Sequence record: PV464738.1
Origin: Escherichia phage RCIP0319
DNA: 64,000 nt
Strand: one strand, 5' to 3'
Part shown: in pieces, positions 54,940-55,345 of the stretch
Position numbering within the stretch: the first letter of the stretch is position 1
Layout: each line of letters opens with the position of its first letter
The notes under the pieces: generated by a model
Told to the model about the DNA's origin: nothing
Seen by the model: only the letters and a program-made list of their open reading frames with translations
Databases searched by the model: none
Position numbers and translations under genes: made by a program

Positions 54940-55345
54940 GAAATTTGGATTTATTTTTGGAGTATGAGCATTGGATTTTGGATTTTAGTGTGCGGATTTT
55001 GGAGAGTGAACCGTGGTGTGTGGTGGCGAAAGCCGCGCCGCGCCTGGATTCTTTGGCTGAAGCGTACACTCTTACGGATAGGTTTTTATCCGTATCATGG
55101 CGCTAGGGTGCGCCGCGCCTGGATTTGTACACTGAATCTTACGGATGATACGGATGATACGCCATTTTTCCTTATTGTAACCAGAATTATTTCAAAAATT
55201 AATTAACTCCATTTTGAATTAATTTAAATTAATTTTTTTCTACATCCTCATACTTATGTTAATTTATATATTTAACGTATTATCCGTAAGATATAAGTAA
55301 AAACAAAGACTTGCGGCAATACGGATGATACGTAATGATACGCTT
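54940..55345. repeat. repeat-dense AT-rich non-coding region (candidate origin or regulatory hub)
   Basis: Seven GGATTT(T) copies (54940-55130); duplicated GCGCCGCGCCTGGATT; GAATCTTACGGATGATACGGATGATACGC (55133-55165) identical to 1105-1139; further ACGGATGATACG copies near 55320; AT-rich core 55195-55300. Confidence 0.55.

What the first reader, a model, noticed from the sequence alone, without database searches (positions are those of the whole stretch)
54940..55345. Repeat-dense non-coding hub: GGATTT(T) x7, duplicated GC-rich 16-mer and a 90-bp AT-rich core
Downstream of a strong terminator at 54808-54837 the sequence has seven GGATTT(T) copies, two copies of GCGCCGCGCCTGGATT each followed by GTACACT...CTTACGGAT, the ACGGATGATACG repeats shared with 1105-1140, and a very AT-rich core at 55195-55300. 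The W-rich track ORF at 54799-55206 is probably a repeat artefact. The architecture of iterons, a GC clamp and an unwinding element is origin-like.
Basis: inference. Interest (0 to 1): 0.5.

Follow-up and report, generated by a model that had tools for sequence, protein, structure and literature searches.

The report
Phage genome end inside origin-like repeat module
This non-coding stretch holds the physical left end of a Wifcevirus phage genome (the packaging cut, at 55210|55211) inside an AT-rich core flanked by inverted short repeats. The layout matches a known type of replication origin, and a second copy lies elsewhere in the genome.

Summary
The repeats are real and far beyond chance. 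The window is a Wifcevirus (PB1-like E. coli myophage). Four GenBank records opened at experimentally inferred termini all begin at window 55211. The element is therefore the left boundary of a 3.3-kb direct terminal repeat (55211-58527).

The core is flanked by inverted arrays of a 9-bp unit (TACGGATGA). An equivalent module lies at 1033-1358, upstream of the prohead protease. These cores are the two most AT-rich 100-nt stretches in the window. Pantoea, Salmonella and Pseudomonas relatives, and integrative islands, have the same architecture with lineage-specific repeat units, which implies a phage-encoded binder.

The phage encodes a near-full-length structural homologue of the SaPI1 Rep self-loading helicase. 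SaPI origins are short iterons on both sides of an AT-rich centre.

Best reading: a SaPI-type origin (one of two) whose core also carries the terminase cut site. The cut site is well supported. The origin function is inferred. The GGATTT tract is lineage-specific, and the W-rich ORF is an artefact.

The parts
54808..54836 (+). Intrinsic-terminator-like hairpin plus T-tract that ends the upstream + strand operon
   Evidence: 7-pair stem with 5 GC pairs, followed by TTTGTTGTTT
54937..55030 (+). G/T-rich spacer with GGATTT(T) copies in a 21-nt register. It is lineage-specific in sequence, but G-richness of this flank is conserved.
   Evidence: D1; not alignable in relatives; GC skew +0.54 here; +0.50 in BrSP1; +0.41 in PCSE1
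55035..55050 (+). GC-rich 16-mer GCGCCGCGCCTGGATT, copy 1. The GCCGCGCCTGG core occurs only three times in the window, the third at 790 upstream of module 2.
   Evidence: (D2)
55110..55125 (+). GC-rich 16-mer, copy 2. GCCGCG(C/A)CTGG is kept in all Wifcevirus lineages.
55071..55098 (.). Outer pair of repeat units: CTTACGGATAG (+) and ATCCGTATCAT (-)
   Evidence: (I9, I15, I18)
55136..55161 (+). Left iteron array ATCTTACGGATGATACGGATGATACG: two tandem 9-bp units pointing toward the core
   Evidence: D3, I4; ACGGATGATACGGAT kept in 12 of 13 relatives
55162..55275 (.). AT-rich core (82% AT), proposed as the unwinding region
   Evidence: tied most AT-rich 100-nt window of the 64 kb
55201..55218 (+). 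Packaging cut context AATTAACTCC|ATTTTGAA, with the cut between 55210 and 55211. This is the left physical end of the genome and the start of the direct terminal repeat. It is unique in the window.
   Evidence: Mansfield, WFC, WFH and Ro157lw records start here; invariant in 13 of 13 junctions; conserved in a relative whose TerS is 68% identical; single occurrence.
55276..55292 (-). Right inverted iteron CGTATTATCCGTAAGAT, 94% complementary to the left array
   Evidence: I4: 17-nt arms, 123 nt apart, centred at 55214
55313..55342 (+). GCGGCAA motif followed by outer right iterons ATACGGATGATACGTAATGATACG
   Evidence: (invariant across relatives)
55490..55536 (+). Two overlapping sigma-70-type promoter-like sites upstream of the small-terminase gene
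   Evidence: TTGAAC-17-TATAAT and TTGAAT-17-TATAAT, each 10 of 12 matches
55571..56044 (+). Small terminase subunit gene
   Evidence: Mansfield annotation; PDB 7UXE, E217 TerS, E 1e-31
55211..58527 (+). Direct terminal repeat, inferred by homology. The right end is at the same homologous nucleotide in Ro157lw, WFH and Mansfield; WFC ends at the position equivalent to 58607.
   Evidence: PMC6753283, PMC6454146, PMC6563267
1033..1358 (+). Paralogous module 2. It has a left array at 1114-1139, an 89% AT core at 1153-1235, a right inverted triple array at 1236-1262 and outer units up to 1336. It lacks the cut context and lies upstream of the prohead protease gene (1447-2856).
   Evidence: (94-100% identical in 28 records)
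43374..45044 (+). VapE-like SF3 helicase, homologous over nearly its full length to the SaPI1 Rep initiator-helicase, with a C-terminal winged-helix-like fold. It is the candidate iteron reader.
   Evidence: 7PDS, E 2.4e-24; pLDDT 84.8; H-E-H-H-E-E at residues 436-504; 7PDS is the top fold match, about 480 aligned columns; C-terminus is the most divergent part
40982..42064 (+). RepB-type primase
   Evidence: PF16793, E 1.9e-36

Best explanation
The region is the concatemer junction of a Wifcevirus phage, built on a SaPI-type replication-origin module.

Shown by homology with mapped termini: terminase cuts between 55210 and 55211, inside the conserved context AATTAACTCC|ATTTTRAA. That creates the left genome end, and the 3.3-kb direct terminal repeat runs from there to 58527.

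Inferred: the elements this locus shares with its paralogue at 1033-1358 form an origin. The shared elements are inverted arrays of the 9-bp unit TACGGATGA on either side of an 82-89% AT core, plus outward-facing GCGGCW motifs.

Proposed mechanism (inferred): the phage's SaPI-Rep-like helicase (43374-45044) reads the repeats with its C-terminal winged helix. It loads on both sides of the AT-rich core and melts it. The RepB-type primase (40982-42064) then primes synthesis.

The cut context is the only conserved element specific to this copy, so it is the packaging signal proper.

The upstream GGATTT/G-rich tract is a lineage-variable spacer. The W-rich ORF is not a gene.
For: Terminus:
- Records of Mansfield (PhageTerm, DTR annotated 1-3673), WFC, WFH and Ro157lw all start at the base equivalent to window 55211 (PMC6753283, PMC6454146, PMC6563267).
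- The cut context is invariant in 13 of 13 junctions while sequence further left diverges.
- It is conserved in a metagenomic relative with 68% TerS identity whose repeats have changed, and it is recognisable in Salmonella PCSE1 module 1.
- It is unique in the window.
- In Pbunavirus JG024, 36 of 161 long reads start at 59,376 (PMC10913387). That position maps to the core between the inverted arrays of the homologous module.

Repeats:
- TACGGAT occurs 21 times against 5.3 expected, clustered at two loci only.
- The two cores are the most AT-rich spots in the window.

Concerted change of the repeat unit at both loci:
- Pantoea PA1: AACGGTTAT.
- Salmonella PCSE1: GCCGTTATAT.
- Pseudomonas BrSP1/JG024: GTAATTTGG.
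- Integrative islands: their own units.

Origin link:
- SaPI origins are 6-12 short iterons, half on each side of an AT-rich centre, with at least two per side in opposite orientation. They are read by the Rep C-terminal winged helix (PMC9371898).
- The window protein matches SaPI1 Rep (PDB 7PDS) by sequence (E 4e-11; profile E 2.4e-24) and by fold over about 480 columns.
- Its C-terminal third is the most divergent part: 30% identity against 58-61% for the ATPase core.
- In Pbunavirus and the islands the module lies directly downstream of this gene.
- GCGGCW motifs flank the cores with mirror polarity: 14 minus and 1 plus on the left, 24 plus and 0 minus on the right, over 10 modules.
Against: - No replication data exist for any member of this phage group.
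- Cumulative GC skew peaks here rather than dipping. Its minimum is at about 40.8 kb, in the divergent helicase/primase region. A Pbunavirus study likewise places skew minima in the replication genes (PMC12390725).
- In this window the module is 10 kb from the Rep-like gene and stays next to TerS instead.
- The cassette Rep-like gene, module, TerS is also kept in the islands, so linkage cannot separate Rep binding from TerS binding.
- Module 1 has only one perfectly inverted unit on its right side.
- The terminus in this particular phage is inferred by homology, not from its own reads.
Confidence: 0.5

Rival explanations
1. Pure packaging site. The inverted 9-bp arrays are binding sites for the ring-shaped small terminase on both sides of the cut, as in SPP1 pacL-pacC-pacR. 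The second module would be a further TerS-binding site, used either for pac-pac synapsis as proposed for T4 or to regulate head genes. No origin function is involved.
For: - The physical end lies between the arrays.
- The module stays within 300-500 nt of the TerS gene in every lineage, even where the Rep-like gene has moved 6-10 kb away.
- TerS diverges as fast as the repeats change: 39-42% identity between genera.
- SPP1 TerS is reported to contact multiple points flanking the cut, and a twin-ring pac synapsis model exists for T4 (both reviewed in PMC9611059).
- A repeat period of 8-10 bp is compatible with neighbouring subunits of a decameric ring (7UXE).
Against: - Module 2 has the more perfect arrays and is better conserved (94-100% identity in 28 records), yet it lacks the cut context, and no end is reported there.
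- E217 TerS, the solved homologue, showed no appreciable DNA binding in vitro (PMC9611059).
- The architecture matches the SaPI origin definition, and a Rep homologue is encoded.
- In the 68%-TerS relative the cut context is unchanged while the repeats changed. This suggests that different readers recognise the two elements.
Confidence: 0.25
2. Transcription-control hub. The arrays bind a phage-encoded regulator that switches the sigma-70-type promoters of two morphogenesis operons (TerS, and protease-scaffold-capsid). The packaging cut merely happens to lie in the upstream AT-rich DNA.
For: - Both modules sit 60-230 nt upstream of strong sigma-70-like promoters.
- Equivalent -35/-10 pairs precede the protease gene in PA1 and BrSP1; these were read from the sequences.
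- Contiguous 8-10-bp repeats in both orientations are typical of small cooperative repressors. This rests on general knowledge (omega, MetJ, ParR) and was not tested here.
- Phage 14-1 has a second, non-sigma-70 promoter class with a CTGG(G) core (PMC10914365), and CGCCTGG occurs twice in the left flank of each module.
Against: - The arrays do not overlap the promoters.
- A 110-nt core at 82-89% AT, bracketed by mirror-image arrays and mirror-polarity GCGGCW motifs, is more than an operator needs.
- The TerL and portal operons have no such module.
- The islands keep the module between the Rep-like gene and TerS without a protease operon.
- TSS tables for 14-1 were not available to test this.
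Confidence: 0.15
3. The ORF 54799-55206 is a real gene, and the repeats are codon-level repeats within it.
For: An open frame of 135 codons with a GTG start exists.
Against: - It has no tblastn match in any phage record, including the 28 close relatives.
- The DNA under it is not alignable between Wifcevirus lineages.
- It is 11% Trp because the strand is G/T-rich.
- It would run across the physical genome end region.
Confidence: 0.02

Closest known systems
SaPI (staphylococcal pathogenicity island) replication origin with Rep self-loading helicase
   Same: Short iterons in two sets on either side of a central AT-rich region, pointing in opposite directions, 7-10 copies in total. A Rep-homologous SF3 helicase with a C-terminal winged-helix-like domain and a separate primase are encoded. 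In Pbunavirus and the islands the module lies directly downstream of the rep-like gene (PMC9371898).
   Different: The units are 8-10 bp rather than 5-6 bp, and the core is longer (about 110 nt). There are two copies per genome. In this window the module is 10 kb from the rep-like gene. The core of one copy carries the packaging cut. The host is a virulent myophage, not a satellite. No binding or replication data exist.
SPP1-type pac site (pacL-pacC-pacR)
   Same: The cut site lies between flanking repeated elements, close to the small-terminase gene. The Mansfield record annotates the terminase subunits as SPP1/SF6-like. Related Pbunaviruses package by headful from the homologous position (PMC10913387).
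   Different: Wifceviruses have exact ends with a 3.5-3.8-kb direct terminal repeat rather than permuted genomes. A second copy of the flanking elements exists without a cut site. TerS binding is untested.
T7-type concatemer junction with direct terminal repeat
   Same: Defined left and right ends, a repeat present once per junction in concatemers, and short repeat arrays next to the repeat boundary. From my own recollection, not checked here: replication origins lie near the T7 ends, and an origin is required in cis for packaging of T7 junction plasmids.
   Different: The repeat is 20 times longer (3.3 kb against 160 bp). There is no phage RNA polymerase promoter. The two boundaries share no obvious sequence. 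How long terminal repeats are generated is unknown (noted in PMC6454146).
Satellite phage P4 ori plus crr
   Same: Two separate loci carry the same short repeats, read by the C-terminal domain of a primase-helicase. This comparison rests on my own recollection and was not checked here.
   Different: P4 repeats are direct octamers without a shared AT-rich centre. The P4 alpha protein fuses primase and helicase. Neither P4 locus is the packaging site.

Membership tests
Direct-terminal-repeat boundary / terminase cut site of Wifcevirus | The physical genome end maps to this position | tested here: met
   Four records opened at inferred termini start at the base equivalent to 55211. The context is invariant in 13 of 13 junctions. 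This is by homology; there are no reads for this phage.
Direct-terminal-repeat boundary / terminase cut site of Wifcevirus | A defined right end, giving an exact repeat rather than headful permutation | tested here: met
   Ro157lw, WFH and Mansfield end at the same homologous nucleotide, equivalent to window 58527; WFC ends 80 nt further on.
Direct-terminal-repeat boundary / terminase cut site of Wifcevirus | Adjacent terminase gene | tested here: met
   TerS at 55571-56044; PDB 7UXE, E 1e-31. TerL lies outside the window.
SaPI-type Rep/iteron origin | Six to twelve short iterons, half on each side of a central AT-rich region | tested here: met
   Seven TACGGAT units around an 82% AT core here, and nine or ten around an 89% AT core in module 2. 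Definition taken from PMC9371898.
SaPI-type Rep/iteron origin | At least two iterons on each side, pointing in opposite directions | tested here: inconclusive
   Module 2 meets this: 1118+ and 1127+ against 1237-, 1246- and 1255-. Module 1 has 55140+ and 55149+ against a single inverted unit at 55282-, followed by 55320+.
SaPI-type Rep/iteron origin | A cognate Rep helicase with a C-terminal winged helix is encoded | tested here: met
   Gene 43374-45044. 7PDS matches by sequence and is the top fold match over about 480 columns. The model shows H-E-H-H-E-E at residues 436-504.
SaPI-type Rep/iteron origin | The origin lies immediately downstream of rep | tested here: not met
   The module is 10.2 kb downstream in this window. 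The feature is met in Pbunavirus (370 nt) and in the islands.
SaPI-type Rep/iteron origin | Rep binds the iterons, melts the AT region, and replication starts there | not testable with these tools
   This needs EMSA or footprinting, plus marker-frequency or nascent-strand mapping.
SPP1-type pac site | TerS binds the repeated boxes flanking the cut | not testable with these tools
   The only indirect evidence is that the homologous E217 TerS showed no appreciable DNA binding in vitro (PMC9611059).
SPP1-type pac site | Headful, circularly permuted product | tested here: not met
   Wifcevirus records have exact repeats at both ends. Pbunavirus relatives are reported as permuted (PMC10913387, PMC12390725).
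DnaA-box / host-factor site | The repeat matches a host protein consensus and is constant across phages of related hosts | tested here: not met
   TTATCCGTA matches 7 of 9 positions of the DnaA box (consensus from my own recollection). However, the unit changes between E. coli, Salmonella and Pantoea phages, which argues for a phage-encoded reader.

The most novel reading that the evidence does not exclude
PB1-like phages, and a family of integrase-bearing islands that look like their satellites, share a portable cassette: Rep-like helicase, iteron/AT-rich module, small terminase. In this cassette one DNA element is both the replication origin and the packaging start. In Wifceviruses, origin firing or helicase loading at the left boundary would take part in duplicating the 3.3-kb terminal repeat, a step whose mechanism is unknown for long-repeat phages. 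The second module would be a cut-less sister origin.
Probability: 0.3. Interest if true: 0.65.

Novelty: new variant of a known kind. Interest (0 to 1): 0.5.

Why it matters
Wifceviruses and their Pseudomonas relatives (Pbunavirus) are among the phages most used in therapy and biocontrol. Despite that, their origins of replication are unmapped, and their packaging signals are disputed for Pbunavirus and undescribed in sequence terms for Wifcevirus.

The analysis gives three things:
- A precise candidate packaging signal, AATTAACTCC|ATTTTRAA.
- Two candidate origins with a named candidate initiator.
- A comparative rule that predicts the same elements in other genera: inverted arrays of a lineage-specific unit, an AT-rich core and mirror-polarity GCGGCW motifs, at two syntenic loci.

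This makes the question of how long direct terminal repeats are produced directly testable. Homologous terminases and homologous sites yield permuted genomes in Pbunavirus and exact repeats in Wifcevirus, so the two can be compared. It also matters for genome rebooting and engineering, where ends and origins must be preserved.

Tried and rejected
- RNA reading: Rfam found no match at E up to 1 in 54500-55800, and ARAGORN found no tRNA in the window.
- Coding reading of ORF 54799-55206: rejected.
- GC/AT skew as an origin test: uninformative, because skew follows gene orientation. The maximum, not the minimum, is at 55 kb.
- Headful packaging with a fuzzy right end as an explanation of the apparent repeat: rejected, because three independently determined right ends coincide to the nucleotide.
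- Similar repeats at the right repeat boundary: no TACGGAT units there. There are only two AAATTTGCAGTACACT copies, which are not present at the left boundary in all lineages.
- DnaA-box similarity: dropped (see membership test).
- TSS data for phage 14-1, to test the promoter reading: the supplementary tables are not held.
- Synteny as a way to separate Rep binding from TerS binding: failed, because the islands and Pbunavirus keep both genes next to the module.
- Pfam: no family for TerS or for the small repeat-region ORFs.
- Literature: searches found no description of the repeat arrays or of the second module. The only relevant remark is that a Pbunavirus pac site lies in an AT-rich region that could be an origin (PMC6521218).

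Full report
IDENTITY OF THE WINDOW

The region and its flanks match 28 phage records, all Wifcevirus or unclassified relatives: PB1-like E. coli/Shigella myophages of 67-72 kb. It is annotated as such in phage Mansfield, and it matches the solved small terminase of Pseudomonas phage E217 (PDB 7UXE, E 1e-31).

THE OBSERVATION

- TACGGAT, the core of the ACGGATGATACG repeat, occurs 21 times in the window against 5.3 +/- 2.7 in shuffles (0 of 100 reach 21).
- Seventeen of those copies lie in two clusters, 54893-55320 and 705-1328.
- An unbiased 9-mer census ranks this family as the most clustered repeat in the window.
The two most AT-rich 100-nt windows of the whole 64 kb are this core and the core of the second cluster (85% each; next best 76%).
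- Exact GGATTT occurs five times, not seven, inside the stated interval. Genome-wide the hexamer is at chance, although the local cluster is not.
- The G/T-rich tract that carries it cannot be aligned between Wifcevirus lineages.
- The W-rich ORF has no homologue in any phage record and is 11% Trp because the strand is G/T-rich.

Four records opened at inferred physical termini all begin ATTTT(G/A)AA, exactly at window 55211:
- Mansfield, from PhageTerm, with a direct terminal repeat annotated at 1-3673 (PMC6753283).
- Ro157lw, from PhageTerm, with a 3,533-bp repeat at both ends (PMC6454146).
- WFC and WFH, with repeats of about 3.7 kb (PMC6563267).

In 13 junction sequences from different isolates the context AATTAACTCC|ATTTT(G/A)AA is invariant, although the DNA 100 nt further left falls into at least three unrelated versions. 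The context occurs once in the window.

The right end of the repeat falls at the same homologous nucleotide in three independently analysed phages, equivalent to window 58527. In WFC it lies 80 nt further on. The ends are therefore sequence-defined, not headful.

The finding is thus the left boundary of the direct terminal repeat. In replicating concatemers it is the junction where terminase cuts.

THE MODULE AND ITS TWIN

The cut lies at the centre of a dyad.
- The array ATCTTACGGATGATACGGATGATACG (55136-55161) faces CGTATTATCCGTAAGAT (55276-55292). The arms are 94% complementary, 123 nt apart and centred at 55214 (I4).
- Further units lie outside on both sides.
- These positions are conserved in the relatives.
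- The locus at 1033-1358 has the same plan in the same orientation: two units, an 89% AT core of about 80 nt, three inverted units and outer units.
- It lies between the head-fibre genes and the prohead protease gene, and it is 94-100% identical in all 28 records.
- The complete Mansfield genome has these two clusters and no third.
- Module 2 lacks the cut context.

COMPARATIVE EVIDENCE

| Lineage | Repeat unit | Where |
|---|---|---|
| Pantoea phage PA1 (TerS 42% identical) | AACGGTTAT, in 9-bp register | inverted arrays around about 100-nt AT-rich cores, upstream of TerS and upstream of the protease |
| Salmonella phage PCSE1 | GCCGTTATAT / AATATCGGC | the same two places |
| Pseudomonas phages BrSP1 and JG024 | GTAATTTGG | the same two places |
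| Metagenomic relative (TerS 68% identical) | (A)TGATACGT | upstream of TerS; cut context letter-perfect |

The unit therefore changes in concert at both loci. This points to a phage-encoded, co-evolving DNA-binding protein and away from host factors.

In JG024, 36 of 161 long reads start at 59,376, which the authors propose as the pac site (PMC10913387). That coordinate maps into the core between the arrays, at the same base where the BrSP1 record begins. A Pbunavirus paper had already remarked that the predicted pac site lies in an AT-rich region that could be an origin (PMC6521218).

I found no description of the arrays, of the second module or of their concerted evolution.

A second motif, GCGGC(A/T), flanks the cores with mirror polarity. 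Over ten modules in six lineages the left side has 14 copies on the minus strand and 1 on the plus strand, and the right side has 24 on the plus strand and none on the minus strand.

WHO READS THE REPEATS

The replication genes include a RepB-type primase (40982-42064) and a VapE-like protein (43374-45044).
- The VapE-like protein matches PDB 7PDS by sequence (E 4e-11; with a 40-sequence profile, E 2.4e-24).
- Its AlphaFold model (pLDDT 84.8) has 7PDS as by far the best fold match over about 480 columns, which is nearly the whole target.
- 7PDS is SaPI1 Rep, a self-loading initiator-helicase. Its C-terminal winged helix reads short iterons. The SaPI origin is defined as 6-12 iterons, half on each side of a central AT-rich region, with at least two per side in opposite orientation, immediately downstream of rep. 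One hexamer is thought to load on each side (PMC9371898).
- The model has a helix-strand-helix-helix-strand-strand unit at residues 436-504.
- The C-terminal third is the most divergent part of the protein: 30-32% identity to the PA1 and BrSP1 homologues, against 58-61% for the ATPase core. The corresponding figures are 57-58% against 85% in the closer relative.
- In Pbunavirus the module lies about 300-370 nt downstream of this gene.
- Integrase-bearing islands in Caballeronia, Cupriavidus and metagenomes carry the same order: VapE-like gene, then a 0.65-1-kb non-coding module with inverted 9-bp-period arrays, then a TerS homologue.

WEIGHING THE READINGS

The cut site is well supported.

For the arrays, three readers are possible: Rep (origin), TerS (packaging) or a transcription regulator.

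I favour the origin reading for these reasons:
- The architecture meets the published definition.
- A full-length Rep homologue is encoded.
- The elements shared by the two modules (arrays, AT core, GCGGCW) should serve a shared function, whereas the only conserved element private to module 1 is the cut context.
- Module 2 has the better arrays and the better conservation, yet no end is reported there.
- In the 68%-TerS relative the cut context is unchanged while the repeats differ, as if read by different proteins.
- E217 TerS did not bind DNA appreciably in vitro (PMC9611059).

Against the origin reading:
- There are no replication data.
- GC skew gives no support.
- Where the Rep-like gene and the module have been separated, in Wifcevirus and PA1, the module stays with TerS.
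- Synteny cannot separate the two candidates, because the islands keep both genes.

My estimates are about 0.5 for the composite origin-plus-cut-site model, 0.25 for a pure terminase site and 0.15 for a transcription hub.

VERDICT

The finding is a real, conserved, functionally dense element. Its identity as the terminal-repeat boundary is already recorded in database entries. What appears new is the following:
- the paired-module architecture;
- the concerted change of repeat units across genera;
- the mirror-polarity GCGGCW motifs;
- the SaPI-Rep link;
- the cassette shared with putative satellites.

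Noticed in passing
window 55548, 55562, 55693, 56048, 56228, 56345, 56432: ATTTGCACTAT occurs six times, plus one near copy, all on the + strand inside the terminal repeat, around and after TerS, although the genes at 56159-57099 are on the minus strand. Pantoea phage PA1 has a TTTGCACTA cluster just after its TerS, and the relative L031 has three TGCACTATG copies immediately before its TerS start codon.
   Followed up: partly
window 58549-58565 and 58645-58661: Two copies of AAATTTGCAGTACACT bracket the WFC-type right end of the terminal repeat (58607) and begin about 20 nt after the end seen in the other three phages (58527). This may be a right-end signal.
   Followed up: partly
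window 55313, 55387, 1047, 1142; loci L018-L030: GCGGC(A/T) motifs flank the module cores with mirror strand polarity: 14 minus and 1 plus on the left, 24 plus and 0 minus on the right, over ten modules. Up to seven evenly spaced copies lie between the module and TerS in island L028. They may be priming or terminase-recognition sites.
   Followed up: partly
L026 3503-8859; L027 6001-13443; L028; L029: Integrase-bearing islands in Caballeronia, Cupriavidus and metagenomes carry a VapE-like helicase, a non-coding iteron module and a TerS homologue (26-36% identical to the window's TerS). They look like satellites of PB1-like phages.
   Followed up: partly
window 40821-40982: The third most AT-rich spot of the window (76% AT) is the divergent intergenic region between the helicase operon (minus strand) and the RepB-primase gene (plus strand). 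It coincides with the cumulative GC-skew minimum. It is an alternative origin candidate, but it has no TACGGAT units.
   Followed up: no
window-wide, e.g. 11092, 12389, 15863, 22959, 27311, 41106, 59882: The motif (C)AGCGCGGCA(A) is dispersed in 11-13 copies. The palindrome TTGTCGACAA occurs at about seven sites (13069, 16122, 23578, 27016, 37369, 37821, 62603).
   Followed up: no
window about 58700; Mansfield about 3870: Just right of the terminal repeat, Mansfield has a tandem CCCACGA x5 where the window and the other relatives have a single copy.
   Followed up: no
window 54815-55065 versus 55365-55615: The non-coding left flank of module 1 is strongly G-rich (GC skew +0.54; +0.50 in BrSP1; +0.41 in PCSE1). 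In the relatives the right flank is C-rich (-0.14 to -0.36); in this window it is only -0.04. Module 2 shows no comparable switch. The function is unknown.
   Followed up: partly
window 57226-57290 and 57633-57700: Two copies of CTTTACTTCTTCGTACACT, each followed about 17 nt later by TTTATATCGAGA, precede the + strand genes at 57267 and 57743. They look like paired promoters inside the terminal repeat.
   Followed up: no
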